Assembly: GCA_040285825.1 (NCBI GenBank)
Contig: JAUPSS010000007.1
Location: 582,501-646,500 of the forward strand
Length of the DNA stretch: 64,000 nucleotides
Source of the DNA: Eukaryota sp. TZLM1-RC
Lineage: Eukaryota; Protista; Metamonada: BaSk clade
Reading direction: 5' to 3'
Part shown: in pieces, positions 6,570-51,495 of the stretch
Layout of the letters: each line of letters opens with the position of its first letter
How positions within the stretch are numbered: the first letter of the stretch is position 1
Notes under the pieces: generated by a model
Seen by the model: the letters and a program-made list of their open reading frames with translations, nothing else
Told to the model about the DNA's origin: nothing
The model's database searches: none
Position numbers and translations under genes: made by a program

Positions 6570-7964
6570 GATAAAAAACATCTAGAATTCAATATCCTCC
6601 AAACAAGCGTCACTATTACTGAACCTACTCACAGCATTACGTTCATATTCTACACCAATAGATTCTCCAGTAGAGAGGAAAAACCTTATCACATTTCTCC
6701 TGTTTCAACCACTGTAGGCCCTGGATATTTTCCCATTGATACAAGAATACTATGGGGAATTGTTAAACAAACACTGATGGATGATTTATTATCTACAGAG
6801 ACGCTGAAAATGTCCAATACATTAGCCCAAATTACGAAATTCAAACCACCTCAGCAATTTGACTTTTGGTCTAATATTCTCGATTTAAATCAACCAATGT
6901 TCAAACAGAAGAGTTATAAATTCAACAACATTATCCACACAGATGGATTTAAAATTGCGGTAGAATTTGTTCGTCGGGATTTACAAGGTCAGAAGTGTAA
7001 GCCAGACAACAAGGCCAGTGTTTCTGATTTATATATTGATGATGTTGATTTTGATACTTTACAAGACAAACGAATTGTTATTTGTGATCCGGAAAACGTG
7101 ATTTATTGTATTTTGGGAGTAAAAAGACTGATGAAGAACTAGCCATGGTTCCTCAGAATGAAACCGAACAGCAAAGAAATAGTCGGGTGATGAATCAAGA
7201 CAAGAAGTACAAATGGTTAAGAATGACTCAGATGTCCTGGTCTTTGAAAAGTAAGATGAATGAAAAGCAAAAACGATGGGGGACAAAGTATACTGAGGTA
7301 GATTACGACAGGAACCAGATGATAGAGTCTTACGAAATGACAATTGAAGATGCAAACACCGAATTATCTGCGTTTGCTGCCAATTCAGCAACTTTTATAG
7401 ATTTTTCCAACTTTGTGGTTGCCAAACTTCGGCAAGTTTTTTTTGACAATCGACTTTTATAGTCTTGACTTGTGGAGCATTCATAAAATGCAAGCTTTTA
7501 TTCACAAGCAAAGGACTGAAAGTTGGTTGTTAAAAAGCCTTGTTCAGCAGTTTGGCAATCCAAAAGACACTTTAATACTAATGGGTGATTATGGTAAAAA
7601 AGGTTCCAAGAATTTAAAACATCAGAGACCTACTCGAGGCATTGGATGGATTCAATTTCTGAAAAGAAATGGTTTTGAAGTCTTGATGATTAATGAAGCT
7701 TTGACTTCAGCAAAATGTCCTGTTTGTTTTGAAAAGGTTGCTACGTTTTTGAGAGTCGCAAATCCCAGATTCTATAGAAGAGAAAAGACTCCAGTTACTA
7801 CATGTCATGGTTTATTAGCTTGTAACAGTGAGAGTTGCAAACTCTGTAACAAAGGCTCAACAAAGCTCTTCAATAGAAATAAGCTGGCTTGTCTGAATAT
7901 GTTTGCAATTGCTGAAGCGAGGATGAGTGGTAATGAAAGGCCTCAGTATCTGTGTAGTAGATAG
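6570..7964 (+). pseudogene. Fanzor1 (eukaryotic TnpB homolog, RuvC RNA-guided nuclease), 5'-truncated, with two 1-nt frameshifts
   Basis: Frame is open from 6570 (KPYHISPVSTTVGPGYFPIDTRIL ... IIHTDG). Adding one G at ~7091 restores DPGKRDLLY (RuvC-I), and removing one T from the T8 run at ~7437-7444 joins the next frame. Then MGDYG..PTRGIG, INEALTSAKCPVC (RuvC-II, Zn), HGLLACxxxxC, FNRNKLACLNM (RuvC-III D replaced by N) and GNERPQYL. Confidence 0.88.
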
Positions 7965-11076: not shown

Positions 11077-13702
11077 TTTCTGGAAATATTTTGCTCGAAA
11101 AAACAAAAATTGTTTTAAAAAAATTTTGGAAATAGAAAAATTGTAAAATCAAAAATTTGCCGAAAATTGTGCTAACGTGGTCGTTATGGTGCCGCAAAAC
11201 AGTCCTTGTTTTCCTCTTCTTTGGCTGATGCAAACTCTGATACCCTTGAAACACTTCAAAAGTTGCATCCTCAAGAAAATTTCAAGTGCAGCAAGCCTGA
11301 AGTGTGTCCTTTTTGGATTGAAAATCCTATTACTGCAATTGAAGTTCCTAAAGCTATTGAAAAATTACCAAAGGGGAAAGCAGCAGGCCCATCTGGAATT
11401 TCTTTTGATCTGTTAAAAACAGCGTGTTCCAGTGCTCCCGAAATTGCATATGATCTAGCCCATTATTTTCAACAATTAATTGTTTTGAAAATTAATCCTC
11501 CTTTTGAATTACTTGCTGCACGTCTGATTGCAAGTCTGTGATAAAGTCTGGTAATGGAATTAAACATGATGGAATACGCCCATTTGCTGTTGGTGAATCT
11601 CTATCTCGTTTGCTGGCATCAATTGTCTTCGATCGTGTCAAAGACAAAGCTTCTACATTTTTGAATCCTCATCAATTTGGAATCAAAACAATTGATGGTG
11701 CTTCTGTTGCTGCTATTGCCTCAGATACTTTTTTTAATGCAGAGGAAAATAATTATAATTTTAATCTTGACTTTAAAAATGCTTTTAATTCTGTAAAGCG
11801 AGAAGCAATTTTTGAAGTAATTAAATCTAATTTTCCTGAGCTATCGAGTTTTTTCTATCATTTTTATGGGAAAGAATCAGATTTAATTTATAATTCATTT
11901 GGTCTTAAATCATCTTCTGGTGTGAAGCAAGGTGATCCTTTAGGCCCATTATTGTTTTGTTTTGCTATTCACAAAACTTTAAATATCATTAAGCAAAATA
12001 CCCTTCTATAAAAATAGTTGCTTATATGGATGATATATCCTTGATTGGTTCATTTGATTTACTAGAATTGGTTGCTCAAGAAATTGCCGATTCATATGAA
12101 AATATTGGGCTTTATCTTAATGCGGGCAAATGCCTTCTGATTGGCTCTTCTGCTCAAGATCTTGTGATAAACGATTCTATTGTCCCTTTTACTAATTATA
12201 GTAGTGATGCTTTTAAGTTTCTTCGTTGTTGGTTAGGAAACGTGCCTCAAATTCAGAATGAATTGCAAGTTATTTAGGAAAAAATGAAAATTGAACTTGA
12301 TTCAATTTCTTCTTTAGATATAGAAAAGCATATTAAATTTTTCATGCTTAAAATTTGCTACACTGGGAGAATAACCCACATTTTGAGATCTTGTGCTCCT
12401 TCCATAGCATTAGATTTTTGTCGTTCATTTAATTCATTGAGAACAGAATTTTTTGCTGATTTATTGGATGTAGAACCAGTAATGTTGAAAAGTCACTTAT
12501 TTTCTTCAGCAAATTTGGGTGGTATTGGATTTACTAAATCTTCAATTTTGTGTCAATCAGCATTCTTGGGTGGTGGCAAAAATTTTATTTATGAATTTTC
12601 TCGTAGATTTCCTGATGATTCTCATCTGTTAGTTGCCAATTGCAGTCCTTATTTGTATGAGTTATCTTGTGAACTTGAAAAATTGCGCCACAAATTTTGA
12701 CCAAATGTTTTCCTCAATCAATTCAAGAAATTCCAAACCGATCTCTTTTTAATTTACAGTTTTGCTGTAAAAAGCTTCAACAAAAATTGTCAAAGATTTT
12801 TGAAAGTTTGGATTTTGATGTTAGACTTGGCTTGGCCAAGAAAAAGAATCCCGCTTTTGCAAATCTTTTAGAAGATATGTCTGACAGTACTTCTTCTGCC
12901 TTAGTAACAACAATTCCACAAGTTTATGGTACTCTCTTAACCGATTCTGCGTGAACTCTAAATATGAGATTTCGTTCCTTTATCTGGCCTGATAATTTAC
13001 CTCATAATTTAATTTGTAAATGTTCTCGAGAAATTACAACTACTCATTTGTTAAATTGTAAACATTTTATTACTTTTAGAAGCAAGGTTCATGATGCTGT
13101 AAGAGACCAGTTATATTGTATGTGTAAATCTCATAGAATTGAATCCTTTTTGGAACCTCTGTTGTCAAGTCTGTTCGATGCTGAAGATGATTTTCATAAG
13201 AATAATAGAGGTGATGTTATATTACCTGGATTAGATGGAAGTTTCATTTTATTGGATGTAATGTCTGTTGATCCTTGTGATGCCTCAAATGCAAGGCTAG
13301 TTAATTCTGAAATTCATAATCCCCTTTCAAATGCTGAAAATTCTAAATTCAAAAAATACAATGAACCTTTGTCCAAATTGGCCAGTCTACAGCATGCAAA
13401 ATACAATTTGTATCCATTTGTATTTTCCCTTTTTGGTTCACTTGCACCAACTGCTTTACGTTTTTTGGATGATTTTGAAATGATTGTAAAAAGAAGAACT
13501 GGCAGAAATTTCAACAAATGTTTTGGGCAAAATAGAATTGTGTTTTCCATTTTTAAGGGGATGTTGAAGATGGTTTCTGATGCTTTGCTTTCTCTTGGAT
13601 CTCATTATGAGAGAGTTGCATCTAGTGTTTTTGTTCTGGGAGAGATGGATTATTTAGATGTTGATTTATAGGTTTTGAATAATGTTAAAATTTTGGTCAA
13701 AA
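11077..13702 (+). mobile_element. CRE-like non-LTR retrotransposon family B (RT + CCHC + RLE endonuclease), 5'-truncated and frameshifted
   Basis: KAAGPSG, IRPFAVGE, LDFKNAFNSV, GVKQGDPLG, YMDD, CKC..HLLNC, VHDAVRD, EP..RGD..DV, PFVFSLFGSL. TSD AAATAGAAGTATT at 11064-11076 and 13703-13715. Confidence 0.92.
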
Positions 13703-15160
13703 AAATAGAAGTATTGTTTTACAAAAACAATATTGGTTATGATGGGACACATCATTTGTCAAACAAGATTACTTTGGAGCAAATTTTCCAACGATTGCTT
13801 TATGATCATATTAGACATGTCAGTCCTTGTTTCATGTGAGCAACAAAGAATCCAATTTTATTGTACGATCAGTGGGTTTGGCCTTCTGCATTATTCTTTT
13901 GTTTCAAGATATTTATTGATGACATTACAGCGCTCAAGGTTTGAATGGATCTGTTTTTGCTCAAATTACTTAAGGATCGTGTTCTGACACCCATTGCGTA
14001 TCTAAAACAGACGAAAAATATGTCAAAGTTGACGACAGCTTGGACTATTAAGCCAACACTTACATCAGAAAAAGGCTCCAACTTAATTGATTGTAAATGG
14101 TTCATAAATAGAAAATGGAAATTTGGTAAATAACTTTTTGGATCTTTGAATGTAATAAAATGTATTTGTCAATTTTCTGCAAATGGTATTTTCAAAACAA
14201 AATCAACTGTTGCAATTGTATACACTGTCAAAATTTTTGCAATATCCTTTCTCATCAATGCATCTCGGAAATTGGTGGCGTTGATTTAAAAGACTGAATT
14301 ACCTTCGCAAAGTTGCATTGTACCATTTACTATTACTTTGTTTTGTGATACTGGACCTTTTTGATCACATTTCTACAAAACAGAGCTTAACATAATTGAA
14401 TTCTTGAATATGGTTAAGTTGAACTGATTGTTGCAATTTTAGGTGTATTGCAGCAATGGTCTCTGACGCTTTGTGAGCTACTAATGCTGAGAGAATCAGA
14501 ATGTTTCATATAATGATTATGGAAACCAGCAAAAATGTTTGGGAATAACATGAATTATTGAAAAACATCAGATTTCGTGTCAAAGAACATGAGCCTAACA
14601 ATAGCATAGAGTTCCAAGATGGCACGAAACGAGGTGACCATTGTGTCTTGGACTGAATGTCAAGAAATCGTAGAATTGGAACTTCACTTCTAATTATTTC
14701 AATGACAACATAAGAATCAAACTGAAGTCCTCAATATCGGTAGCTACTAATCAAAAATTGACATCCATTTTTTAGAGCATTGTGCGGAACAGTTAGTTAG
14801 ATGATGTAGGAAATTTCATAGAATTGATTGCATGAACGGATCCATTGGTTTAGTCTATAAAAGCCAGTTGAAATATAAAAACATCATTTGGATTTTTGTC
14901 AAAAGTTGTGATGTTGATTCTATCAATAGTCATCAGAAAATTAATTAATACATCACCAACTAAAATTTGGTTGTTTTCTTCATGTTGTTGAGCTATATAC
15001 AGCTCTTTTTTATTCTCAAATTGTGCTCAATTGTGAAAGGTCACTCAGTATATAATAGCAGAGAGAGCCAACAAAATGGATTTAAAAAGCACAAAGACAT
15101 CACTCCCCAGGATTTCAACTCAACATCCCTGAACAGTTTTAAACCATCTTTTCTCCACCA

Positions 15161-28598: not shown

Positions 28599-29584
28599 AA
28601 AAAATTTGGACCAAATGTTTTCCTCAATCAATTCAAGAAATTCCAAACCGATCTCTATTTAATTTACAGTTTTGCTGTAAAAAGCTTCAACAAAAATTGT
28701 CAAAGATTTTTGAAAGCTTGGATTTTGATGTTAGACTTGGCTTGGCCAAGAAAAAGAATCCCGCTTTTGCAAATCTTTTACAAGATATGTGTGACAGTAC
28801 TTCTTCTGCCTTAGTAACAACAATTCCACAAGTTTATGGTACTCTCTTATCCGATTCTGCTTGGACTCTAAATATGAGATTTCGGTCCTTTATCTGGCCT
28901 GATAATTTACCTCATAATTTAATTTGTAAATGTTCTCGAGAAATTACAACTACTCATTTGTTAAATTGTAAACATTTTATTACTTTTAGAAGCAAGGTTC
29001 ATGATGCTGTAAGAGACCAGTTATATTGTATGTGTAAATCTCATAGAATTGAATCCTGAATTGAATGCTGAAAATGATTTTCATAAGAATAATAGAGGTG
29101 ATGTCATATTACCTGGATTAGATGGAAGCTTCATTTTATTGGATGTAATGTCTGTTGATCCTTGTAATGCCTCAAATGAAAGGCTTGTTAATTCTGAAAT
29201 TCATAATCCCCTTTCAAATGCTGAAAATTTTAAATTCAAAAAATACAATGAACTTTTGTCCAAATTGGCCAGTCTACAGCATGCAAAATACAATTTGTAT
29301 CCATTTGTATTTTCCCTTTTTGGTTCACTTGCACCAACTGCTTTACGTTTTTTGGATGATTTTGAAATGATTGTAAAGAGAAGAACTGGCAGAAATTTCA
29401 ACAGATTGTTTTGGCAAAATAGAATTGTGTTTTCTATTTTTAAGGGGATGTTGAAGATGGTTTCTGATGCTTTGCTTTCTCTTGGATCTCACTATGAGAG
29501 AGTTGCATCTAGTGTTTTTGTTTTGGGTGAGATGGATTTTTTAGATGTTGATTTATAGGTTTAGAATAAAATTAAATTTAAAAA
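28599..29584 (+). mobile_element. CRE-like family B, 5'-truncated copy of the defective subfamily
   Basis: Near-identical to 12690-13690, with an A-tail. TSD AAATTTTAGATAT at 28586-28598 and 29585-29597. Confidence 0.92.
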
Positions 29585-29929
29585 AAATTTTAGATATCGA
29601 CCATATAAAATCATAATCAAACTTGAGGGTTTGCTGTTAAAAATCAAACTGATTAATTCTCATATGAAACTGTTTGCAAGATGTCTTGTGAGTTTAAGGT
29701 GGTCGTTTATTTTCTCTTCCTTATTTATTAAATGTTAAATTGGTTTTTGGATGCTAAAATTACCCTCAATCTGAAATCTTATTAAACGTTTATTGTAAAT
29801 TCAGTCAATGTTTGTGATTCATTAGGTTTGACGATAATGACGGTTTTCCCAATAGTTATATCTCATCAGTGAAGAAAATTGAATATGTTCAATTTATTGA
29901 CCTCCAATTTAAGGCAAAAATATCCACAC

Positions 29930-34363: not shown

Positions 34364-37073
34364 TTACTGGTGACTGTTTTCAGCATTATCAGCTCTTTTG
34401 AGTTGCTGGGCTACAACACTAGACAGTCTAGCAACGGAGGACACTCGCTTTCTAGCACTTCGAATCAAGCTTGGCATAATCGAGATGATGTTCTCAGTCC
34501 GAACTTGTAAGACATTCATGGCGTGATCTCTTGCTTCTACAATTTCTTGGGCGATGAACTGAAAAATGGCTTCGTTTTCTCTTTCTATATCATCGTCGTT
34601 GTCAACAGAGTGGCTGACTCTGGTGAAAAACTGCGTTAGACCTGTTGGAATGGCAGTTGTAGTGCATGTTGGATCATCTTGAATCTTCTTCTGGTGTGAA
34701 ACAAGGTGATCCTCTTGGCCCTTTGCTGTTTTGTTTGGCTATTCATAATATTATTAAAATGACACAACAAGATTTCCCTGATTTGCGTATTGTTGCCTAT
34801 ATGGATGACATTTCTATTATTGGTTCTTTTGAAAGCATTTCTAGGGTTTCTGAAGACATTGCGGCGAAATACAAAGAAATTGGTTTAGCTTTGAACCCAT
34901 CTAAATGTCTCTTGATTGGTAGAGAAAAACAATCTTTGATGATTGGTGGAGCTCAGATTCCTTTTATCAATTATGACCAACAAGCTTTTAAGTTTCTTGG
35001 ATGTTGGCTTGGCAATTTGGATGAAATTTATTCCCAGTTAAACAATTTATTGGAGAAGTTTGACAAGGATCTTAGTTTTATTGCTGAATGTGACATTGAG
35101 AAACACATCAAATTTTTTATTTTAAAAATTTGTTATTCTGGAAAATTCACTCATATTTTAAGGTCAACTCCCCCATCGGTATCTCTCAATTTTTGCAGAT
35201 CTTTTAACAAACTTCGAGTCAAATTTTTTTCTTCTTTATTAGAAGTAAATGAATCTTTAATTCGAAGTCATGTATTTTGTTCAGCAGATTTGGGTGGAAT
35301 TGGATTCACCAAATCTTCTATTCTGTGTAAAGCAGCATTTTTGGGAGGTGGTAAAAATTTTGTTTTTGAATTTTTCCAAAGGTTCCCTTTTGATGTTCAT
35401 CTGATCAATGGTGAATCAAATTTTTACTTGAATCAACTGCAATTTGAATTAGAAAATTTGCCTAGTGATATCTGGATTCAGTGTTTTCCTCAAAATGTTC
35501 AAGAAATTCCCACCCGATCACTTCCAAATTTACGTTTTTGCTTGAAAAAGCTTCAGCACCATCTGGTTAAATTATATGAAGGCTTGGATTATGAAGTAAG
35601 ACTTGGCTTGGCCAAAACTAAAAATCCCGCTTTCGGTAATTTTTTAAAGGATATTCGTGATAGTTCAGCTGCTGCTTTAGTAACTCAAGTTCCCTCTGTT
35701 TATGGACTTTTGTTAAAAAACAATGAATGGCTTCTAAACATGCGTTTTCGTTGTTTTCTGTGGCCAAACAATTTGCCCAATCATTTAACTTGTAAATGTG
35801 GTAAACCTCTTTTGTTTACTCATCTTTTGAACTGCAAACATTTCATTACGTTTAGAAGCAAAGTGCATAATAACGTCAGGGACCAAATTTATGTAATGTG
35901 CAAATCATATCGAGTAGATTCCTTTTTAGAACCGCTGTTATCAAAATTAATTCTTGATGATCCCAATATTGATAGTACGCGTTACAACAGAGCTTCTATG
36001 GGTCTGACTAGAGGTGATCTAGTTGTTCCTGGTTTAAATGGTAGTTTTACTATTTTTGGACGCCATGTCTATTGACCCTTGTAATTCCTCTAACGAACAT
36101 CTCATTAACTCGGATGTAAATAATCCTCTTCTTGCAGGCGAAAAATATAAAATTGCTAAATATGCGAAACCCATTTCCTCGGTTAATGAAAATTCTCATG
36201 CCCAATATAATTTATGTCCATTTGTTTTTTCTTTGCTTGGATCTCTAGGTAAGGCTGCTATGGCTTTCCTCGAGGATTTTGTTGTAGTTGTAAAGGAAAG
36301 AACTGGAAGAATTTTCAATCGTGTTTACTGGCAAAACAGGATTGTATTTTCTATTTTTAAGGGAATGGTAAAACTAATTTCTGATTCACTATCTTCTTTG
36401 GGGAAATTTTCTGAATCTTTAGCAATTAATTGTTTTGATGTAGGGGAGGCAGGTTTCGAGGATGTGGAGTTTTAATTGTGAATTTCATATTTGTTTGTTG
36501 AATAAAAATTAGTGTTGGATCATCTTTATAATTTTTGGCCCAGGTCTCCCAAGCAGACTGTGGACCGTCAATATCTGGGTTCTGTTCCTGCAAAAACTCC
36601 ACTGTAGTTGACCTTGCTTCTTCAGCTTCTGTTTCCTTAATAAACAAGCCGTATTACTTAGCAGACACATTATCGGCAGCTATTTTGATCGAAAATGGGT
36701 ATTCCTTTCGATCGTTTGGCGCAGCAGATAACCAATTTTTAACCCATTTTCTGATTGTGGAAGCCTCGACTTTGGTATAGTTCCAGCCGTTTCCATAAGA
36801 AAAGAAGAACTGAAACGAGCTTCTTGGATGAGTTTTTACTTCCTGAGCTCGGCAAATTGCGTGAAAGTGTTGCAGGAAAAACTCTTTGAGAGCAGAGGGG
36901 CTCCAAGAGTAATCGTGTGTGTAGAATAAGTCAAGTTCGCGAGGTTCGAGTCTGTTAGATTTCTGGCCTGAAAGACAACAGACAACGCCAACAGTAAGTT
37001 TATTGGCGTCAGGGAACAGTTCTAACGAAAGGTCATTAAACAAAGCACGGTTTACGTTTTGATGTTCACTCAT
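34364..37073 (-). pseudogene. Accessory ORF2 of the second IS630/Tc1 element, split by a CRE insertion (reconstructed ~290 aa with one in-frame stop)
   Basis: 36654-37073 and 36527-36653 are in one frame. Removing the insertion and one TSD copy joins AWETWAKNYKDDPT to CTTTAIPTGL...RKRVSSVARLSSVVAQQLKRADNAENSHQ* (stop 34364-34366), homologous to 999-1352. Confidence 0.75.
34681..36512 (+). mobile_element. CRE-like family C, 5'-truncated at the RT QGDPLG motif
   Basis: GVKQGDPLG, YMDD, CKC..HLLNC, RGDL, PFVFSLLGSL. Perfect 14-bp TSD TGTTGGATCATCTT at 34667-34680 and 36513-36526. Confidence 0.93.
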
Positions 37074-40474: not shown

Positions 40475-41424
40475 AATACGATATCATTGTTGCCGCTTCC
40501 ACCAAGGAAACATTCCTAGAAAAACTCGAATTAATTCTTTCCTGTGCTAGGAAACACCGTGTAAGAATCGGCCTGCATAAATGCTCTTTCCAGACCGAGA
40601 AACAACCGATGAAGGTCCTCGGAACTATTTTCGAAAATGGTAGACGCCGCATCGACCCATCCAAAATAGAGACCATTCGTAAGTTAGCTCTGCTCACGTG
40701 TGTTCCTGAGGGGAGCTCCTTCATAGGATCTAGCAACTTCCTCCGCGACTGGCTCCCTTCGATTTCTAAAGAACTCGCCCCACTAACCGCCCTTTTGAAG
40801 AATAAGCCAAAGCGTATTAAACTCGGCACTGAAGAGTTGCGTTGCTTCAACATTTTCAAAAATATGGTGATAAACGACCTTGCTCTCCCTGACTCCGACG
40901 CCAACATCCTTGTCTCCACTGACGCTTCTGACAAAGCGATCGCCGGCATCATTTGGAGGGAATTAAGTCCCTCGCCACCCGAAACATGTCTGTCCAAAAG
41001 AAAAGTCATGCCCATCTGTTTTTACTCTCGAATATTGACTAACTCACAGCGTAACTGGTCGACATTACAAAAGGAACTATTCGCAATAGTCATGACACTG
41101 AACCAACCGAATCTCGATTCTTTCCTGCTGACCAAGCACCTAACCTTGTTTTGCGATCACAAAAACCTCTCGTACCTGTTCAGCTGCCCTGACTCTAACC
41201 GCTTAGTGTTACACTGGATCTCTGTGCTACAATCCTTTTTCTTTGACTGTGTACATGTAGAATGAAATCAAGAACTACTGGACCGACTACTTATCTAGAG
41301 TCAAATACACAATTTGCGCCTCAAAGAAAAAGAAAAAAACGAAAAGAAGACCAGAAGTGTCTTTGACAACCCTGCTCCCGCTCCTGCTCCCACCCACGTA
41401 GTATCCGCTATAGTGGCTTCCTCT
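40475..41424 (+). mobile_element. Older Ty3/Gypsy element: RT C-terminus and RNase H fragment
   Basis: DIIVAA..KC, FIGSSNFLRDW, STDASDKAIAG, QRNWSTLQKELFAI, FCDHKNL; paralogous to pol at 48819+. Confidence 0.88.
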
Positions 41425-44400
41425 ATTTATTAAATTATCAAATGATACTTTTGCGTGAACATTTGCCTTTTTCGCCTTTTTATGAACTTCGTATGATTTA
41501 TCGTTAATAGAAGCTGGTGTAATATTAAATAATCGTTTAATGATTTCACCATCGTATACCTTTCCAAATCTTGTGTTTTAAAAAATACAATTCTTTTTGT
41601 TTTGCAACATTTTAACGAGGAAATAATTATTTCAACAGTAAAACAATTCTTCAATTAATTTTTCACGATAGCCAATATAAGTCAGTGCAATATCGGTTTT
41701 ATCTGGATTAATTAACAAGATGTTGTCCAAATTAACTGCCTTTGGATATGTTGCTGTTACATCACGGTGAATTCTAATTCCTGGTGTATCAGAAAAGAAT
41801 TCTCACTGGTTCACTGGTTCAATTGCATTTAATAATTTTATTTCATTACAACGAGGAATTGTTGTTTTTTTTGTTTTAATATAATCATCAAATGCACCCT
41901 TTAATTGTGGTAATAAAACAAACCCCTTTAAATTGAAAATAATCTTTTCATTTACATATTCAAAGCATAGAATATCAAGTAGGCGTGGGTCAACATCCTT
42001 TGTTTGGAATTTCTTAATTCTCTTACTTACAAGTGAATAACACTCACCCAATTCTGAAACATCAATATCATTACAGTTTCTCAACATTAAATCCAAATTC
42101 ATAAAGTAATACTTGTTTTCTATTTCAGTAAAATCAACATCAATGAATAATTATTGTTCGGGATATGTTGGGAATTTCTTTTCAACAATCTTTGGAAGAT
42201 TTGCAATATTATCATATAATATTTTACTGGCAATAAATGACTTTAAACTCAAATATTGATTTCTACACAATTCACCAGTAAATAATGGATGTGATAACAC
42301 AAATTCCATTTCCTCAACATAAAGATTAAATATTTCTTGATTTTTTGACCAAGATGTAAATTCTGTAATTATTTTTGGAGATAACTGGAAAATTGGATCA
42401 CGTATATCTTGCATTGTACTCATTGAAAAATTTTCAAGTGAGTTACCCAATCCATATAATTGTGTGATTGGATCTGTTCTTCTTGACACACTATTATTGA
42501 AATCTGCGGATTTTGAAAATAATACCCTGTAATTGATTTCTCTAGGTGTTGTATCAACAACCTTTGCAACATATTCTTTAGGAGTTTCAGTTTCTGGCAC
42601 GTGATAATTTGTTGGTTGGTCCATATAATTATTAAAATGAATATTCACGATTGCTTGACCAGTTGTCACATTGAGCAAATATTGACAGATATAATCTTCA
42701 TCAGAGATGTCCAACTCTTTACAATATTCATATGTTGCCAATGTTTCAATTATAATCTCTTTTGTTAGCTTCTTACCATCAGATTGTAATTTGAAAATCT
42801 CAGAACACGGATTAATTTTAAACATTTTTCCCAATTCATTTGCAAGATTTTTTTATAAATGAGATGTGAATGGAAAAATGCGGCTGCTGTTGAAATATTA
42901 TGTGATTCAGTTAAACACACAACCACATATCCAACCATCATCTTCTTTTCCTTTGTTGCAATTTGGTGCAATTTTTCCAATTGATACCCATAAGTAGATG
43001 CTAAAATACCCTTTGATTCATAGTCCAAATTGATTTTGTGTAACTTAACATATTCTTGATAAAAATATGGTAACAACACCAGTTCTTCCAATCGTACTTT
43101 CAAATCATTATTGTGATCTAAAACCATTATATCAATTAAGAAATCTGGTATGGTTGAAATTTTAAGATCACCATAATTATAATCTTTTATCATATCAAAA
43201 AAAATCATTTAAATCAACATTTAATTTATTCAAAAACATTCATAGATTTTGGAAATATGTTGACACAGATACATTTTCAATATAATTATAATCCAAAGTA
43301 CCAATAGGTTTGTTGTTTCGTTTCTTTAGAAAATTCCATAATAAAAGAATAAATTCTTGTAGTATATGCAATCATTTTAACCATTTGTAAATTTTCACAG
43401 TCTGATAAATCAAAACAAGTAATTTGTGCACACCTTTAAGTGCACACCTTTGGATATTTTCGGCATCATCAACTAACAGGTTGTTCATTTCTTCAATACT
43501 TTTGACTTTGTTTATGTAATTTCCACATAAATTTTTTTTTAATAATTTGAATTTTATTCTAAACCTATAAATCAACATCTAAAAAATCCATCTCACCCAA
43601 AACAAAAACACTAGATGCAACTCTCTCATAGTGAGATCCAAGAGAAAGCAAAGCATCGGAAACCATCTTCAACATCCCCTTAAAAATAGAAAACACAATT
43701 CTATTTTGCCAAAACAATCTGTTGAAATTTCTGCCAGTTCTTCTCTTTACAATCATTTCAAAATCATCCAAAAAACGTAAAGCAGTTGGTGCAAGTGAAC
43801 CAAAAAGGGAAAATACAAATGGATGCAAATTGTATTTTGCATGCTGTAGACTGGCCAATTTGGATAAAGGTTCATTGTATTTTTTGAATTTAAAATTTTC
43901 AGCATTTGAAAGGGGATTATGAATTTCAGAATTAACAAGCCTTTCATTTGAGGCATTACAAGAATCAACAGACATTACATCCAATAAAATGAAGCTTCCA
44001 TCTAATCCAGGTAATATGACATCACCTCTATTATTCTTATGAAAATCATTTTCAGCATTCAATTCAGGATTCAATTCTATGAGATTTACACATACAATAT
44101 AACTGGTCTCTTACAGCATCATGAACCTTGCTTCTAAAAGTAATAAAATGTTTACAATTTAACAAATGAGTAGTTGTAATTTCTCGAGAACATTTACAAA
44201 TTAAATTATGAGGTAAATTATCAGGCCAGATAAAGGACCGAAATCTCTTATTCAGAGTCCAAGCAGAATCGGATAAGAGAGTACCATAAACTTGTGGAAT
44301 TGTTGTTACTAAGGCAGAAGAAGTACTGTCACACATATCTTGTAAAAGATTTGCAAAAGCGGGATTCTTTTTCTTGGCCAAGCCAAGTCTAACATCAAAA

Positions 44401-45678
44401 GCCAAGCTTTCAAAAATCTTTGACAATTTTTGTTGAAGCTTTTTACAGCAAAACTGTAAATTAAATAGAGATCGGTTTGGAATTTCTTGAATTGATTGAG
44501 GAAAACATTTGGTCCAAATTTGTGGCGGTAATTTTTCAAGTTCACAAGATAACTCATACAAATAGGGACTACAATTGGGGACTAACAGATGAGAATCATC
44601 AGGAAATCTACGAGAAAATTCATAAATAAAATTTTTGCCACCACCCAAGAATGCTGATTGACACAAAATTGAAGATTTAGTAAAACCAATACCACCCAAA
44701 TTTGCTGAAGAAAATAAATGGCTTTTCAACATTCCTGGTTCTACATCCAATAAATCAGCAAAAAATTCTGTTCTCAATGAATTAAAAGAACGACAAAAAA
44801 ATCTAATGCTATGGAAGGAGCATAAGATCTCAAAATGTGGGTTATTCTCCCAGTGTAGCAAATTTTAAGCATGAAAAATTTAATATGCTTTTCTATATCT
44901 AAAGAAGAAATTGAATCAAGTTCAATTTTCATTTTTTTCCAAAATAACTTGCAATTCATTCTGAATTTGAGGCACATTTCCTAACCAACAACCAAGGAAC
45001 TTAAAAGCATCACTACTATAATTAGTAAAAGGGACAATAGAATCGTTTATCACGAGGTCTTGAGCAGAAGAGCCAATCAGAAGGCATTTGCTGGCATTAA
45101 GATGAAGCCCAATATTTTCATATGAATCGGCAATTTCTTGAGCAACCAATTCTAGTAAATCAAATGAACCAATCAAGGATATATCATCCATATAAGCAAC
45201 TATTTTTATAGAAGGGTATTTTTGCTTAATGATATTTAAAGTTTTGTGAATAGCTAAACAAAACAATAATGGGCCTAAAGGATCTCCCTGCTTCACTCCA
45301 GAAGATGATTTAAGACCAAATGAATTAAAAATTAAATCTGATTCTTTCCCATAAAAATGGTAGAAAAAACTCGATAGCTCAGGAAAATCAGATTTAATAA
45401 CTTCAAAAATTGCTTCTCGCTTTACAGAATTAAAAGCATTGTTAAAGTCGAGATTAAAAATAAAATTATTTTCCTCTGCATTAAAAAAGGTATCAGAGGC
45501 AACATAAATTTAACATTTAATAACATATTCCACATAAATGATCTCGTAAAGTAGAAATGAAATTATATTCTAGAAAATTTCCCCAGATACCATATATCAT
45601 GTCGTGTGGTTTGGAGTTACCATCAACTTGTATTTCTTGAGATAAAAAATCGTGAATGTTTGCTAAACAGTTATTCAT
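41425..45678 (-). pseudogene. Large uncharacterised ORF (~750 aa reconstructed), frameshifted and split by the CRE insertion
   Basis: Fragments 45502-45678, 43372-43531, 42765-43208, 42151-42834, 41803-42102 and 41430-41800 follow one another via single stops or shifts. Confidence 0.55.
43532..45501 (-). mobile_element. CRE-like family B, 5'-truncated copy of the defective subfamily
   Basis: Near-identical to 11715-13690, with a poly(T) tail at 43532-43540. TSD ACATAAA(TTT) at 43525-43534 and 45502-45511. Confidence 0.92.
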
Positions 45679-45712
45679 TTTTATGTAATTTAATTCAGTC
45701 TTTTACCTAAGA

Positions 45713-46219
45713 ATGAGATTACCAACTATTTTACAAAAAGGTACTTTTGAAAAACCATCTGGTACAACACAACACGAATGGATGGCTGGGGGTGTTGATG
45801 TTATTGCAGTTGATATAATTACAAAAATTTTAAAAGAAAAACAAAAATTACCACCAACAGATATTGACAAATATATATATATTGTTTATTGGTAGAACTG
45901 GTACTCGAAGATCATCTGCGTTCATCCTTAAATTATATGAGGAATTCCCTGATGCTCGAATGGCAATCCTCGAACCACGTAGGTTTTGATTACAATCATT
46001 TGAACAATATGGTAAAAGTTTGTATGAAACTTATTCGAAAATATACGATAATATAATTGAAGGCAAAAATGAAATTGAAACATTTGAATTCAATGATCAT
46101 GATTATGAATTATATGATTCTATAAAGACAAGAAAGTTACCTCTTATTATTCCAACAAAAAAATAACAGAAGAATTATTAGAACAAGTACGTGCATCTTT
46201 TATAAAGTTAATAGTTTAA
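45713..46219 (+). pseudogene. DEAH/NPH-II-type RNA helicase remnant (N-terminus, motifs I and Ia, then a large internal deletion)
   Basis: MRLPTILQKG...LPPTDIDKYIY, then after a shift LFIGRTGTRRSSAF (degenerate Walker A) and MAILEPRR (motif Ia). Confidence 0.6.
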
Positions 46220-46518
46220 ATTCGGGTAATCTATTTGATTTTCGTTGGGTCGATTTTACAAAAGTTTGTGAAATTGTAACGATATCACCAATTTTATATA
46301 TTTCAACATTTTATTTTGTTTTTGATCATATAATTATGTGAAAAATTACATCTATATCCATATTCACAATAACCATCCTTAAAAAAATGGTAAACATTTT
46401 GTTAATTTATAATTTGATGAAACTTTTCGAGGTTTAATTTCAGTAATTGAATGTGCATATGTGCATTTTTCATTATAAGGACAATTTGGGTAATTTCTAC
46501 AAAATTCAGTTTCATCAT
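46200..46518 (-). pseudogene. Minimal tristetraprolin/ZFP36-like tandem CCCH zinc-finger protein (~105 aa; three 1-nt homopolymer indels)
   Basis: KTEFCRNYPNCPYNEKCTYAH-(18 aa)-CLPFFKDGYCEYGYRCNFSH, with a YKLTKC lead-in and a C-terminal RLPEFKLLTL*. Confidence 0.8.
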
Positions 46519-46540
46519 TTATATACTGTATTCTCCCGAT

Positions 46541-46595
46541 TAGAGCACCTCCCTAAGGGGTGCTCTATAACAGAGCGCTCTTGAATAGAGCACCC
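46541..46595. repeat. GC-rich inverted/direct repeat cluster (AGAGCACC motif)
   Basis: TAGAGCACC (46541) / GGTGCTCTA (46559-46567) hairpin, AGAGCGCTCT palindrome (46572-46581) and TAGAGCACCC (46586-46595). Confidence 0.7.
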
Positions 46596-46972
46596 TCATA
46601 CTTGACTAAAATCAACTGCAGTCAATAGTATTTGTTAAACTGTATTTCTAACAACTTAGCAAATTACAATAAATACTGGAAACTGGATGAAAAATTTGAT
46701 ATTCTACGCTCTTTTCACTCATGTATACTCAGTATTCGGCGCGCCTAAATCTATCCACTCTGATAATGGCCCTGAATTCTCCAACCAGACCTTTGCCTTG
46801 ATATGCTTCTATCTGAACATTGAACACACCCTTTCCATCTGCCATTTCCATCAGTCCAATGGACTAGTAGAACGGCAACACCGAACCTTTCTCCCAGCTT
46901 TCCAGAAACTGCTACTTGTCTTCTCTGATGATGACAACTGGTGTCATTATGTTCCAATTTGTTAAATGCTGA

Positions 46973-47064
46973 TGTAATCGTAATAGTTAGTTATTGCCAC
47001 GTCATCACTCGTTTAGTACTCGTGTTAGTTATAATAATTCATTCGTTTATCTCTCTAAGCTACA
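46973..47064 (+). repeat. 5' LTR (92 bp)
   Basis: Identical to 51404-51495. Confidence 0.96.
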
Positions 47065-47091
47065 GTAACGTTACTTTAGACCGCGAGATTT

Positions 47092-48732
47092 ATGTCCGAT
47101 ACCGAATCGCCACCCCCGTCTGAATCCGAACAACGCGTAGCCGATACCTCGTCAAGTTCCGAAAGCTCCGAGAGTACCGCCCAATTAAGCGAATCAGAGT
47201 CCGAGTCTGAACCCGAAGTAATATCCGAAGAAGAACGAAGCAACCCCAATGAAGACCACCAAGACAACAATGATGTCGAAGACAAGAACCCAACCATACA
47301 ACCCGATCTATCCGAAACGCTAAAAAAATTGTTTATCACCGGCTCCATGGTAAGACCCGTCACGCTGCGTTCCCTCAGCAGAACAAATGTTAAATACTTC
47401 TTCGAGAAGTACGAACTCTATAAAATAAACTCTAACACTGCCCTACCTTTAAAGAACTTCATTCCTAAACGTTTACTCAAGGTAATCACTGTCGAAACTG
47501 GATCCACCAAAGACAAAAAAATCCATCGATACTTGAACTCATTGACTATTATTACCGACCCCTACGAAGCTAAAAAAGCGATGAAAGCATGCCGTATGAA
47601 CATCAAAATCAAGAACAAAGAACAACAGCTAGCTGATTATTACGTCAGATTTCTCGAAATAGTTGAACAATGCCGCTTCAACACAAAAAACAAGACCGTC
47701 ATCCGCTACTTCCTAAGAAACCTCCATCCGAAACATGTCGCAAACGAAATTGAAGAAAACGTTGACCTAAGCTATTTGAAATCCCTCCACACAGTCTACA
47801 AAGAAGCAAAGAAACTAATCAAAAGAACGTATAATCAACAGAAACGTAATCATTATCCTCGCCTAAACACTTCCGATAATCCTTCAAAAAACGATAACGG
47901 TTCCGAAACTTCTGAGATCCCACAGAACGGAAGACCCGACGAAAATGAAACATCCGCTCATCATACTCAAAGACGCTTTAAATACTCTAAGGACTCCGGC
48001 CGCTGTTTACACTGTGGTTCTTATGACCATTACGTAAAAAATTGCCCCAATAATCCACCTCCCCCTCGATACAAGAAAAAAGAAGTTTTTCACATATCCT
48101 CAGACAACGGTGTGCTTCGCAGCCCTGTTACAGTCAACGGTACCTCCATAGAAGCAATCATCGATACCGGTTCAAGCATCTCCCTGATTTCCGAAAACAT
48201 ACGTGCCACATTGAACCTTAACATTCAACCCTTGACTAATGAAATTGAACTGAAAACAATCTCTGGATCCTTTTATCCAGACAAAATGGTTAAAGATGCC
48301 CGTATCGAAATCTCTCTCATTAATTCAAAACCATCCGTCGTAAACCACAACCTCGTGATCATCCCTCTTCCCGACAAGCTCATTCTCGGTTGTGACATTC
48401 TTAGGAAACTTGGCTGTCTCACTAATTCTTCCTTTCATTTTGATTTCAACTTCACTCCTGATATAGACCCAGACCCTATTGCTGACCTATATCCCAATCC
48501 ACTCGAGCTTTTTCACGTCGAATCCGAAAAAGGCAGCAATCTAGACGACATCACATCCAAGGCCTCACTGACGCCGAACATAAAACTCTTGCCAACCTAC
48601 TACAAGAATACTCAGACATATTTACCACAGCTCTACACCCCGACGGAGTCAAATGTGAACCCTTACGTTTACCTCTTCACCCTGAAAAAATTGTTACCTC
48701 CGCTGCAAGACCTCTATCGCCGAGAAAACTGA
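47092..48732 (+). CDS. gag: Gag-protease
   Basis: CLHCGSYDHYVKNC zinc knuckle; AIIDTGS and ILGCDIL protease motifs. Confidence 0.9.
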   Translation: MSDTESPPPSESEQRVADTSSSSESSESTAQLSESESESEPEVISEEERSNPNEDHQDNNDVEDKNPTIQPDLSETLKKLFITGSMVRPVTLRSLSRTNVKYFFEKYELYKINSNTALPLKNFIPKRLLKVITVETGSTKDKKIHRYLNSLTIITDPYEAKKAMKACRMNIKIKNKEQQLADYYVRFLEIVEQCRFNTKNKTVIRYFLRNLHPKHVANEIEENVDLSYLKSLHTVYKEAKKLIKRTYNQQKRNHYPRLNTSDNPSKNDNGSETSEIPQNGRPDENETSAHHTQRRFKYSKDSGRCLHCGSYDHYVKNCPNNPPPPRYKKKEVFHISSDNGVLRSPVTVNGTSIEAIIDTGSSISLISENIRATLNLNIQPLTNEIELKTISGSFYPDKMVKDARIEISLINSKPSVVNHNLVIIPLPDKLILGCDILRKLGCLTNSSFHFDFNFTPDIDPDPIADLYPNPLELFHVESEKGSNLDDITSKASLTPNIKLLPTYYKNTQTYLPQLYTPTESNVNPYVYLFTLKKLLPPLQDLYRREN

Positions 48733-51380
48733 AAATTGCCAACCAAATATTTGACAGCTTAATAGAGAAAGGTCTAGCCAGACCATCTTGTTCCCCATTC
48801 GCCTCTCCTATTGTTCTAGTGGAACGAACTAACAAAGAACCTAGATTAACTGGCGATTATGGGCGACTCAACGAGATCCTTATTCCTATCATCCCCGATA
48901 TTCCACGTCTAAGCGAAGTTCATAAACAACTCGCCAACGCAAAATACATCGCATGCTTCGACCTGCCACGCGCTTTTTATCAAATATTGATGCACGAAGA
49001 AGATATTCCTAAGACTGCTATCGTAATACCGGGTCGCAAGATTGAGTTTCTCCGAGCTCCCTTCGGTTTCTCCACAGTACCAGCCCACTTCCAAAAACAA
49101 TTGAACAACATCCTTGGTAGTGATCACACTTGGATCTACATAGATGACCTCATCGATACTGCCGCTACTTTCGAAGACTTTATCAATCATATAGCATGGA
49201 TTCTAAAACAATGCCGAGCTCACAACATCCGCTTATCAGCCAAGAAAAGCATCATCACAACTAAGGCTTACCCAATACGAATTGTCGGAACAATCTTCCA
49301 CAACGGCCAACGACTCCCAGACCCCACCAAAACAGAAGCCATTACACAATTGAATTTCCCATCAAATATAACCGAATTACGTTCCTTTCTCGGCTCAATC
49401 AACTTTTTACGAGATTTAATCCCCAACTTAGCTTCACTTCGAGCCCCTCTTGACGAATTACTGAGAAAGAACTCCAAGTACTCTCCTTGCAAAACCCATC
49501 GTGAGGCATTCGATCAACTTATCAATCACGTAAAAAAGATCATCCCTCTTACTATACCTGATGACCATCACCCCTTCATCATGACTACCGACGCATCCTC
49601 TACAGGTATTGGTGCTGCTTTATTCGTAGAACTTCCTCCTTATGCACCTAACAAACCCCTGAAGGATCGTTCTCTGAAACCTGTTTCTTTCTTTTCCCGC
49701 AAATTAACAAAAACTCAGCAAAACTGGCCAACCATCAAGCAAGAACTCTTTGCCATTATCGAATCACTACGCTACGAACCTCATCACGAATTTCTGTTTG
49801 GACGTTGCTTCGAACTTCATACGGATCACCGGAATTTACTTTTTCTATTGAACAGTTCAACTTCAAATCCCCTTATAGAACGCTGGAAACCAATCTTATT
49901 TCACTATGACTTCACCATGCACCATGTTGACGGACCTTCAAACTTATGGGCCGACCTTTTGTCTCGCTCTTACACTCATCAATTGAAATCCTCGACGGCT
50001 ACGGACAACGACTTGTGTCTTTATGCTGAACTTGATGAACTCTTACCACACCTGGACACACAAACTTTACTCAACGACACTGACCTCCGTACGGAATTTC
50101 TTAGTACAATCCATAAGGAAAACGCACATCTCAGCAAAACCCGTATGTTGCAAAAACTCAAATCCCTGAAGCTCGACACATCTCACTTCAAAGAAAATGT
50201 TGATTCCATAATCGATAACTGTGGTATCTGCCAAAAATTCTCGAGTTCGTCTTTTTCTTCTCCGCCTCTAACAGGCAAACTGTTCTCACACTTACCCTTC
50301 CAATCTCTTCATCTCGATTCCATTGGCCCTCTTCAGGATGACTCTGATGGGAACAAATACATCTTAGTAATGACCGACGCATTCACACGATTTTCTATAT
50401 TGAAAGCCATTCCCAATATTACGGCAGAGACTATAGCAAACGCTTTGATTTCATCTGTTTTTTGCATGTTTGGTCTTCCTGAATCGATAAGAACAGATAA
50501 CGGCCCTGAATTTGACAATCGCCTTTTCGCTGCTCTACTCAAAAGTCTTTATATAAAACATACTTTCAGTTACCCACACCATCACGAATCTAATGGACTC
50601 ACAGAGAGATGAAACAGAGATATCCGATCTACTTTAAACAGATTCGCAGCCGAATACAACAATAGGGCAAATTGGTCAAAATTAATTCCCTTCACTCAAC
50701 TAATTATCAACTCTTTTCTGTGCTCATCCACAGGATTTGCTCCCTTTACACTCTTGTTTGGGGCTAATACATCACCACGACGAAATATCATCGATCACAT
50801 CTTATCTTCACCCATTTCCAATTTCAAACTAGATTCACGCACAAAGGCAAAAACGTTCCTGCTTGATCTTGAAAATACACTCACTAGCTTATGGCTATCT
50901 GCCGAGAATCAGCAAGACAGTTTCACCAAACCTCATCTTAAACATGAACCACTATTTAAGATTGGAGACCTGGTTCTTAGGAAATCTGACAACAAAAACA
51001 AATTTATTAAGCACACTGGACCCTTCGTCGTACTTGAGATACCTGGATCTAACGGGTACAAGATTGGAAGTATTGTTAACGACAGCTCTTACAACGTTTC
51101 TCAATATCAACTTCTACCTTTTCTACCAAACGAACTCAACGATAATGCTAGAACAGTTGCTGCCTTAGACTCTTCCGAATTCATCGTAGAAAATATCACT
51201 GATCATCGTATTGAGGATAATCAGTTTACTTTCTTAGTGAAATTTCTCAACGGGCCTACTTTGTGGCAACCATTAGAGAACCTTCGTGATGGTTTTAGAA
51301 TCAACAGCGTCTTACTCGACTATGCCAACAAAAATGGAATCAAACTCCCTACTCGCCACAGAAAGAAGGTAGATAGGTGA
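48486..51380 (+). pseudogene. pol: Pol (RT, RNase H, integrase, chromodomain); -1 frame relative to gag, with one nonsense codon at 50610-50612
   Basis: FASPIVLV, APFGFS, YIDD, TDASSTGIGA, TDHRNL, H..H..CGIC, LDSIGPL, TDNGPEF, SNGLTER*, HTGPF, EFIVENITDHR..FLVKF..WQPLENL. Confidence 0.92.
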
Positions 51381-51403
51381 CCTCACTCTCAAATGAAGGG
51401 TAG

Positions 51404-51495
51404 TGTAATCGTAATAGTTAGTTATTGCCACGTCATCACTCGTTTAGTACTCGTGTTAGTTATAATAATTCATTCGTTTATCTCTCTAAGCTACA
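51404..51495 (+). repeat. 3' LTR (92 bp)
   Basis: Identical to 46973-47064. Confidence 0.96.

What the first reader, a model, noticed from the sequence alone, without database searches (positions are those of the whole stretch)
46200..46518. Minimal tristetraprolin mimic (tandem CCCH + RLPxF tail) in the virus-like segment, missed by the ORF track
Seen: correcting three homopolymer indels gives MMKTEFCRNYPNCPYNEKCTYAHSITEIKPRKVSSNYKLTKCLPFFKDGYCEYGYRCNFSHNYMIKNKINVEIYKIGDIVTISQTFVKSTQRKSNRLPEFKLLTL* (105 aa). Finger 2 is C-x8-C-x5-C-x3-H, finger 1 is C-x5-C-x5-C-x3-H, the linker is exactly 18 aa, and both have KTEL-like lead-ins. Known: TTP/ZFP36 proteins bind AU-rich elements through this tandem finger and recruit CCR4-NOT through a C-terminal RLP(I/V)F motif. 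Inference: a stripped-down RNA-binding plus deadenylase-recruiting module lacking the regulatory regions. Next to an RNA helicase in virus-like DNA, it is a candidate viral hijacker of host mRNA decay.
Basis: partly seen in the sequence, partly recalled or inferred. Interest (0 to 1): 0.85.

Follow-up and report, generated by a model that had tools for sequence, protein, structure and literature searches.

The report
Broken mini-tristetraprolin in foreign DNA
Inside a decayed stretch of foreign, likely giant-virus DNA, a eukaryote genome carries a broken gene for a very small two-zinc-finger protein that would likely have bound AU-rich mRNAs and handed them to the cell's poly(A)-shortening machinery; similar small proteins are already on record in viruses and protists, so this is one more example, not a new kind.

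Summary
The sequence is real. On the minus strand at 46200-46518 lie a tristetraprolin (TTP)-like tandem CCCH pair (C-x5 finger, 18-residue linker, C-x8 finger) and a NOT1-motif-like tail. They are split over three frames. The tail scores above chance (0 of 2000 resamples), but its fourth residue is Glu, where 54 of 54 homologous motifs have V, I, T or C.

The gene's codon use is foreign (GC3 0.10 against 0.36 in host genes). It sits in a low-GC stretch with in-frame stops, frame breaks and a LINE insertion, so it is most likely a relic. No read covers it, so assembly error stays open. No tool confirmed the neighbouring 'RNA helicase' or any viral hallmark gene; viral origin is inferred.

The design is not new. 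Viral TTP-like proteins are in print (Hamid & Makeyev 2016). Proteins of 117-125 aa from Scale drop disease virus and Tetraselmis virus 1 match an intact look-alike's model. Giant-virus bins carry CCCH plus RLPI(F/L) genes, and a cellular contig encodes a 145-aa version. This scan also noted an 88-aa giant-virus mini-TTP before, on other DNA (e1-5529847). Verdict: a new, broken member of a known kind whose function is untested.

The parts
46510..46518 (-). Likely start (Met-Met-Lys), in another frame than finger 1; first frame break at a run of three A near 46510-46512
   Evidence: Lys before Thr-Glu is nearly invariant in 35 aligned homologs. The finger-1 frame is open up to 46552 without a Met.
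46451..46501 (-). Zinc finger 1, C-x5-C-x5-C-x3-H (three residues shorter than the TTP finger); both aromatic positions hold Tyr
   Evidence: best Pfam hit Nab2-type zf-CCCH_2, E 4.5e-5; aligned to TTP 1M9O with a 3-residue gap
46397..46450 (-). 18-residue linker with a basic patch and a loose second lead-in (YKLTK)
46336..46396 (-). Zinc finger 2, C-x8-C-x5-C-x3-H, split by the second frame break at the T7 run 46381-46387
46203..46335 (-). Tail of about 44 residues; third frame break in the A runs 46309-46323
46206..46232 (-). NOT1-binding-like motif R-L-P-E-F-x-x-L-T, with an atypical Glu at position 4; stop at 46200-46202
   Evidence: the mouse TTP motif is quoted as RLPIFNRISVSE in PMC8180021
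45710..46166 (+). A degenerate Walker-A-like stretch and an EPRR stretch resemble DEAH helicases only from recall.
   Evidence: no hit in Pfam, NCBIfam, PDB or 13 giant-virus helicase loci; only a chance-level PHROGs row
41632..45702 (-). Long orphan gene of several hundred codons, broken by about 5 frame shifts and 3 in-frame stops in its left 1.9 kb and cut in two by the LINE
   Evidence: no relatives found
43532..45502 (-). 5'-truncated host LINE (non-LTR retroelement) with poly(A) tail and a 7-9 bp target-site duplication, inserted in the low-GC stretch
   Evidence: RVT_1; contigs run on past 45502
41420..46530 (.). Low-GC foreign stretch (27-28% GC outside the LINE, against 37-44% in host genes), flanked by LTR-retroelement remnants
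46530..46600 (.). Small GC-richer hairpin-forming element just upstream of the gene, near the edge of the stretch
   Evidence: 46525-46625 folded as DNA, z -4.3, 0 of 200 shuffles

Best explanation
This is a broken, likely dead copy of a compact tristetraprolin-type gene, lying in a foreign stretch that likely came from a large DNA virus; when intact, its two CCCH fingers would likely have bound AU-rich mRNA and its C-terminal helix would likely have docked on NOT1 to bring in the host CCR4-NOT deadenylase. SHOWN: finger pair and spacing, tail motif above chance, foreign codon use, decay of the surrounding stretch, insertion of a host LINE. FROM FAMILY KNOWLEDGE: TTP's tandem finger binds AU-rich elements and its C-terminal peptide forms an amphipathic helix on NOT1 (PMC12350847, introduction). 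INFERRED: viral origin; that the ancestor was functional; that a C-x5 first finger still reads an AU-rich half-site; that the host has a compatible NOT1.
For: Fingers, linker and all four aromatic positions align with TTP and TIS11d. Tail motif 12.9 bits, 0 of 2000 resamples; it lies about 35 residues after the last His, within the range of most homologs (24-58). An intact 110-aa look-alike with the same C-x5/18/C-x8 spacing and an RL..F tail (P0078) scores best of the 70 tandem-finger domains compared. Its model has confident fingers (pLDDT 85-95 over residues 11-70) and a helix over the motif (residues 102-109), and matches TIS11d 1RGO at E 5.8e-6. Foreign origin: GC3 0.10 against 0.36; +15.9 bits against 26 of 26 negative host chunks. 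Decay: 3 in-frame stops and 5 shifts in 1895 nt of the neighbouring gene, 2 of those shifts without a homopolymer nearby; LINE insertion; host ORFs of 649, 757 and 198 aa are intact, and the host breaks checked are GT..AG introns. Viral precedent: Scale drop disease virus ORF_096L (125 aa) and a Tetraselmis virus 1 protein (117 aa) are the top viral fold matches; giant-virus bins carry CCCH + RLPIF, RLDVF and RLPIL genes (L003, L105, L122); one Atlas cluster of 79 members at 139 aa is viral, mostly Nucleocytoviricota, at score 0.86, a lead only.
Against: No viral hallmark gene or viral relative was found for any ORF of the stretch. The closest database relatives of the finger pair with a known setting are cellular or unplaced, and the tree does not place the window gene in any supported group. 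Glu at motif position 4 occurs in 0 of 54 homologs. In human TTP the C-terminal motif alone contributes modestly and several contacts are needed (PMC12350847, PMC9476947; passages). 3 of 4 intact C-x5/18/C-x8 look-alikes lack an RL..F tail. The codon model for the foreign class was trained on only 466 codons of the same stretch.
Confidence: 0.5

Rival explanations
1. The gene is intact in the organism. The three breaks are long-read errors in a part of the assembly that short reads did not polish, and the protein is a live or recently acquired mRNA-decay adaptor.
For: Two of the three breaks lie at T7 and A4-A5 runs. All eight zinc ligands and four aromatic positions are kept, and the joined path holds no internal stop.
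Against: The neighbouring gene has in-frame stops and shifts away from homopolymers and is cut by a LINE. Runs of 4 or more lie in 53% of 28-nt windows here. Two LINE copies agree over 989 nt with only 2 gap openings, and long host ORFs are intact. Glu at motif position 4 looks like decay.
Confidence: 0.2
2. The protein worked as an RNA-binding decoy or poly(A)/U-rich binder rather than a deadenylase recruiter. The shortened, Nab2-like first finger changed its specificity, and the tail had lost NOT1 binding.
For: Finger 1 is C-x5 and its best Pfam hit is the Nab2-type finger. TTP is defined by two C-x8 fingers (PMC3739726, passage). Glu at motif position 4. 3 of 4 look-alikes with this spacing lack the motif.
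Against: The other motif positions (R, L, P, F, hydrophobic at 8, Thr at 9) match the homolog consensus. The look-alike P0078 keeps both the C-x5 finger and a canonical motif.
Confidence: 0.15
3. The gene is cellular: a transferred piece of another AT-rich protist, or a diverged host TTP paralog, with no virus involved.
For: Compact finger-pair + RL..F proteins are common outside viruses: 54 of 115 distinct tandem-finger proteins examined carry the motif, and L089 (145 aa) lies among Dopey, PIP5K and NUFIP1 genes. Top BLAST matches among the fetched loci are such metagenome genes. No viral marker was found.
Against: Codon use is unlike the host's, which argues against a host paralog. The neighbours are tightly packed orphan ORFs without recognisable cellular families, as expected of large-virus DNA. 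Retrieval was biased towards cellular genes, which far outnumber viral ones.
Confidence: 0.13

Closest known systems
Tristetraprolin / TIS11 family (ZFP36, ZFP36L1/L2, dTIS11; PDB 1M9O, 1RGO)
   Same: Two CCCH fingers 18 residues apart, a K-T-E lead-in, conserved aromatic positions, and a C-terminal RLPxF-xx-(I/L)-(S/T) motif.
   Different: First finger is C-x5, not C-x8; second lead-in diverged; Glu at motif position 4; no flanking disordered regions; gene broken in three places.
Viral TTP-like proteins: Scale drop disease virus ORF_096L (125 aa), Lymphocystis disease virus TTP-like protein, Tetraselmis virus 1 CCCH protein (117 aa), Marseillevirus LCMAC zinc-finger proteins
   Same: Compact CCCH proteins in large DNA viruses. 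The two iridovirus proteins are listed in Hamid & Makeyev 2016 Table S1. All appear in the viral fold search with the look-alike's model, 4 at E <= 0.001 (the lymphocystis row only at E 0.36).
   Different: Their sequences were not fetched, so their finger spacing and tails were not checked here. Function is given as unknown (PMC5031192). They sit in free viruses; this copy is endogenous and broken.
Giant-virus MAG single-finger CCCH + RLPI(F/L)/RLDVF proteins (L003, L105, L122)
   Same: CCCH finger with a NOT1-motif-like stretch in giant-virus bins. L003 and L122 share neighbours (kinase, nuclease), so the motif is kept in two related viruses.
   Different: One finger only, 141-170 aa, motif in mid-protein, genes intact.
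Compact TTP-like proteins from metagenomes (P0078 110 aa, P0052 111 aa, L072 119 aa, L089 145 aa)
   Same: Finger pair plus short tail with RL..F. P0078 has the same C-x5/18/C-x8 spacing and 44% identity over the first piece.
   Different: Intact. L089 is cellular by its neighbours; the setting of P0078 (a 10.5-kb unnamed contig) is unknown.
Nab2/ZC3H14-type CCCH fingers
   Same: C-x5 spacing of finger 1 (Pfam zf-CCCH_2; 3ZJ1 at E 0.016).
   Different: Linker, finger 2 and tail are TTP-type. That Nab2 binds poly(A) is recalled, not tested.

Membership tests
TTP/TIS11 family | Two fingers, each C-x8-C-x5-C-x3-H | tested here: not met
   Finger 2 is C-x8 once joined; finger 1 is C-x5. Definition from PMC3739726 (passage).
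TTP/TIS11 family | Fingers 18 residues apart | tested here: met
TTP/TIS11 family | (R/K)YKTE lead-in before each finger | tested here: inconclusive
   Lead-in 1 has TE with its Lys in another frame; lead-in 2 is YKLTK.
TTP/TIS11 family | Conserved aromatic residues at the RNA-stacking positions of both fingers | tested here: met
   Tyr/Tyr in finger 1 and Tyr/Phe in finger 2; their stacking role is recalled from the TIS11d structure.
TTP/TIS11 family | C-terminal NOT1-binding motif | tested here: inconclusive
   Above chance, but Glu at position 4 occurs in 0 of 54 homologs and the score is below all training motifs.
TTP/TIS11 family | Binds AU-rich elements and promotes CCR4-NOT deadenylation | not testable with these tools
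Endogenous Nucleocytoviricota element | Hallmark or homologous giant-virus genes in the stretch | tested here: inconclusive
   No hit, but no library of giant-virus gene families was on hand and the queries were short fragments.
Endogenous Nucleocytoviricota element | Integrated, compositionally foreign, gene-dense stretch in a eukaryote chromosome | tested here: met
   GC 27-28% and GC3 0.10-0.23 against host 37-44% and 0.36; host LINE inserted with a target-site duplication; window ORFs map to a 3.2-Mb contig.
DEAH/HrpA-type RNA helicase (neighbour) | Intact motifs I-VI of the two RecA domains | tested here: not met
   Only about 150 codons in three frames; no GK(S/T) Walker A; no profile or pairwise hit above shuffles, best 4 of 300 among 13 loci.

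The most novel reading that the evidence does not exclude
Large DNA viruses of protists widely carry phosphorylation-free mini-tristetraprolins (one or two CCCH fingers wired straight to a NOT1-docking helix) that redirect the host's CCR4-NOT deadenylase. This relic records such a gene, with a re-spaced first finger and perhaps a new RNA target, from a virus lineage that has no sequenced relative.
Probability: 0.25. Interest if true: 0.65.

Novelty: new member of a known kind. Interest (0 to 1): 0.33.

Why it matters
If such viral mini-TTPs do recruit CCR4-NOT, giant viruses would steer host mRNA decay with a captured adaptor rather than with a nuclease of their own. They would also give a natural test of whether the NOT1 motif suffices without the extra contacts that human TTP needs (PMC12350847). 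That case is better made with intact genes (Tetraselmis virus 1, giant-virus bins, P0078, the scan's earlier 88-aa finding). This broken copy adds a further host setting and the C-x5 first finger, but cannot show function.

Tried and rejected
READS. Five runs were listed, none on record as RNA (no RNA holder listed). Four runs were laid on each of 45450-47050 and 40900-43700; no contig covers the gene or the orphan ORFs beyond short chance matches, so the breaks could not be checked. This blank is no evidence either way.

HOST GENOME. None is held, so the host's own TTP and NOT1 could not be compared and no complex was modelled.

RELATIVES OF THE GENE. Viral-contig scans with the first piece and with P0078 found none. 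Word-index protein searches found none for the piece and only self for P0078. Three alignment scans of viral contigs gave 8, 6 and 3 loci, 16 distinct; none holds a C-x5/18/C-x8 pair, and the one tandem pair (L009) sits in a 648-aa protein without the motif. A full census of viral contigs by finger spacing was not obtained, so the viral range of this spacing is open.

NEIGHBOURS. No relatives for the 233-aa, 147-aa or helicase-like pieces. L095 is a 10-residue chance match in a tailed phage. The single-sequence model of the 233-aa ORF had pLDDT 36, and its fold matches are meaningless. DNA matches to two giant-virus bins were short AT-rich noise.

TREE. 71 rows and 65 columns, unresolved; the window gene falls in no starred group. 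Rows: stored proteins under 500 aa with a finger pair, plus 21 picked loci; single-finger viral proteins were left out.

REJECTED IDEAS. (2) A link to egoviruses: the preprint's main text has no CCCH, zinc-finger or helicase mention (passages); its supplements are closed and might bear on this.

LITERATURE. 'Tis11' + 'giant virus' gave 0 papers. 'iridovirus' + 'tristetraprolin' gave 1, not relevant. (listings) showed no functional study of a viral TTP homolog. Blackshear & Perera 2014 is not held and is known only through citations.

Full report
SETTING. The window is from a eukaryote. It holds ATG9, CCT-epsilon, kinases, a ChAPs protein and a Na+/H+ antiporter among many transposons. Three of its ORFs are on record on a 3.2-Mb contig. 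The three host-gene breaks checked read as short GT..AG introns. The lineage was not determined; 'protist-like' is my inference from the compact, short-intron genes. No whole genome is held.

OBSERVATION. Joined with X at the break, the spacing is 5/18/8. The first piece aligns to TTP (1M9O, E 2.2e-6) and TIS11d (1RGO, E 2e-5) through finger 1 and the linker, with a 3-residue gap in the finger. The family definition (two C-x8 fingers, 18 residues apart, R/K-Y-K-T-E lead-ins) is from PMC3739726 (passages), so finger 1 fails the strict definition.

THE TAIL. They come from the best 150 of 324 representative hits and the best 80 of 549 confirmed metagenome stretches; many are close kin, so they are not independent. 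A profile of these motifs gives the window's tail 12.9 bits. None of 2000 resamples and 1 other of 688 tiles of the window reach that score. But position 4 is V, I, T or C in 54 of 54 and Glu here, and the window scores below every training motif. The motif is real but worn. The mouse motif is RLPIFNRISVSE (PMC8180021, passage). Its role as an amphipathic helix on NOT1, and its modest effect when deleted, are from PMC12350847 (introduction and passages) and PMC9476947 (passages).

FOREIGN AND DECAYED. The stretch 41420-46530 has 27-28% GC outside an inserted LINE; host genes have 37-44%. GC3 is 0.10 in the finger gene, 0.11 in the convergent neighbour, 0.23 in the orphan ORFs and 0.36 in host genes. 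The finger gene's synonymous codons favour the orphan model by 15.9 bits, while 26 of 26 host chunks are negative (the host chunks were also the host training set). A processed host copy is therefore unlikely. A 5'-truncated LINE with a short target-site duplication splits a long orphan gene, which shows that the stretch is chromosomal. That gene has 3 in-frame stops and 5 shifts in 1895 nt, two of them away from homopolymers. Two of the three breaks in the finger gene are at homopolymers, but 53% of 28-nt windows here hold such a run, and two LINE copies match over 989 nt with 2 gap openings. Decay is the simpler reading; error in an unpolished patch cannot be excluded because no reads cover the gene.

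IS IT VIRAL? Not shown. No ORF of the stretch found a relative in Pfam, NCBIfam, PHROGs (chance-level rows only), PDB, the word-index protein set, the Atlas, viral contigs or two giant-virus bins. The 'RNA helicase' is about 150 codons in three frames, with a degenerate Walker-A-like stretch and EPRR. Against 13 giant-virus helicase loci its best score was reached by 4 of 300 shuffles. Its likeness to viral DEAH helicases is recalled, not tested positive. Foreign composition and packed orphan ORFs fit a large-virus insert, and I put a viral origin at about 0.75.

PRECEDENT. Hamid & Makeyev 2016 state that iridoviruses and nidoviruses encode tandem-finger proteins of unknown function, and list five entries (PMC5031192, passages and Table S1). 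The intact look-alike P0078 (110 aa, 5/18/8, tail RLHVF; unnamed 10.5-kb contig) folds with confident fingers and a helix over the motif. Its model matches TIS11d and, among viral models, Scale drop disease virus ORF_096L (125 aa, E 4.7e-6), a Tetraselmis virus 1 protein (117 aa, E 3.6e-5) and two Marseillevirus proteins: 4 of 66 matches at E <= 0.001. Giant-virus bins hold single-finger genes with RLPIF, RLDVF or RLPIL (L003, L105, L122); others lack the motif (L001, L002, L104). An Atlas cluster of 79 short viral zf-CCCH proteins is a lead. Compactness is not a viral mark: L089 (145 aa) lies among Dopey, PIP5K and NUFIP1 genes, and L072 (119 aa) beside a WD40 gene on a 1-kb contig. Of four intact proteins with exactly 5/18/8 spacing (P0078, P0082, P0128, P0151), one has the motif.

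MECHANISM. Most likely (0.5), the ancestor was a TTP-type adaptor in a large DNA virus: fingers on AU-rich 3' UTRs, tail helix on NOT1, target mRNA deadenylated, without the phosphorylated regions of animal TTP. The present copy is a relic. Architecture and decay are shown; RNA binding, NOT1 docking and viral origin are inferred. Rivals: intact gene with assembly errors (0.2), decoy or altered binder without NOT1 recruitment (0.15), cellular donor or host paralog (0.13).

VERDICT. It works like a tristetraprolin but is not a strict member (finger 1 spacing). It is a new, broken member of a known kind: compact TTP-like proteins of viruses and protists. I found no functional study of the viral ones in the searches named under Tried and rejected, so the class is worth testing, but with intact genes. 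Interest 0.33.

Noticed in passing
window 6570-7964 (+): A Fanzor1-type RNA-guided nuclease gene in three frames; the C-terminal piece 7413-7961 matches Parasitella and Spizellomyces Fanzor1 structures (E 3.7e-21 and 2.9e-16). Pfam missed it.
   Followed up: partly
window 46973-51495: A Ty3/gypsy-like retrotransposon with two identical, very short 92-bp LTRs (TG...CA) and long gag and pol frames, nested in an older integrase remnant; likely a recent insertion.
   Followed up: no
window 46530-46600: A 70-bp element of nested inverted repeats at the edge of the foreign stretch, just upstream of the finger gene (z -4.3); could be an element end or a junction scar.
   Followed up: partly
window 41632-43525 and 45503-45702 (-): A long orphan gene of foreign codon use, split by a LINE; no relative found by any search. 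Identifying it would name the donor.
   Followed up: partly
window 11716-13705, 28602-29587, 34677-36385, 43532-45502: At least four copies of one LINE family at 65-99% identity, so it has been active over a long time.
   Followed up: no
L003:2060-2548, L105:1471-1896, L122:4840-5352: Giant-virus bins with single-finger CCCH genes bearing a NOT1-motif-like stretch; bin G002 has two, and L003/L122 are syntenic. Better candidates than the window's gene for testing viral CCR4-NOT recruitment.
   Followed up: partly
L004-L008: Five small viral contigs (2.8-4.8 kb); in four, a long replicase-like ORF ends in a single CCCH finger. Their likeness to noda-like RNA viruses is recalled, not tested.
   Followed up: no
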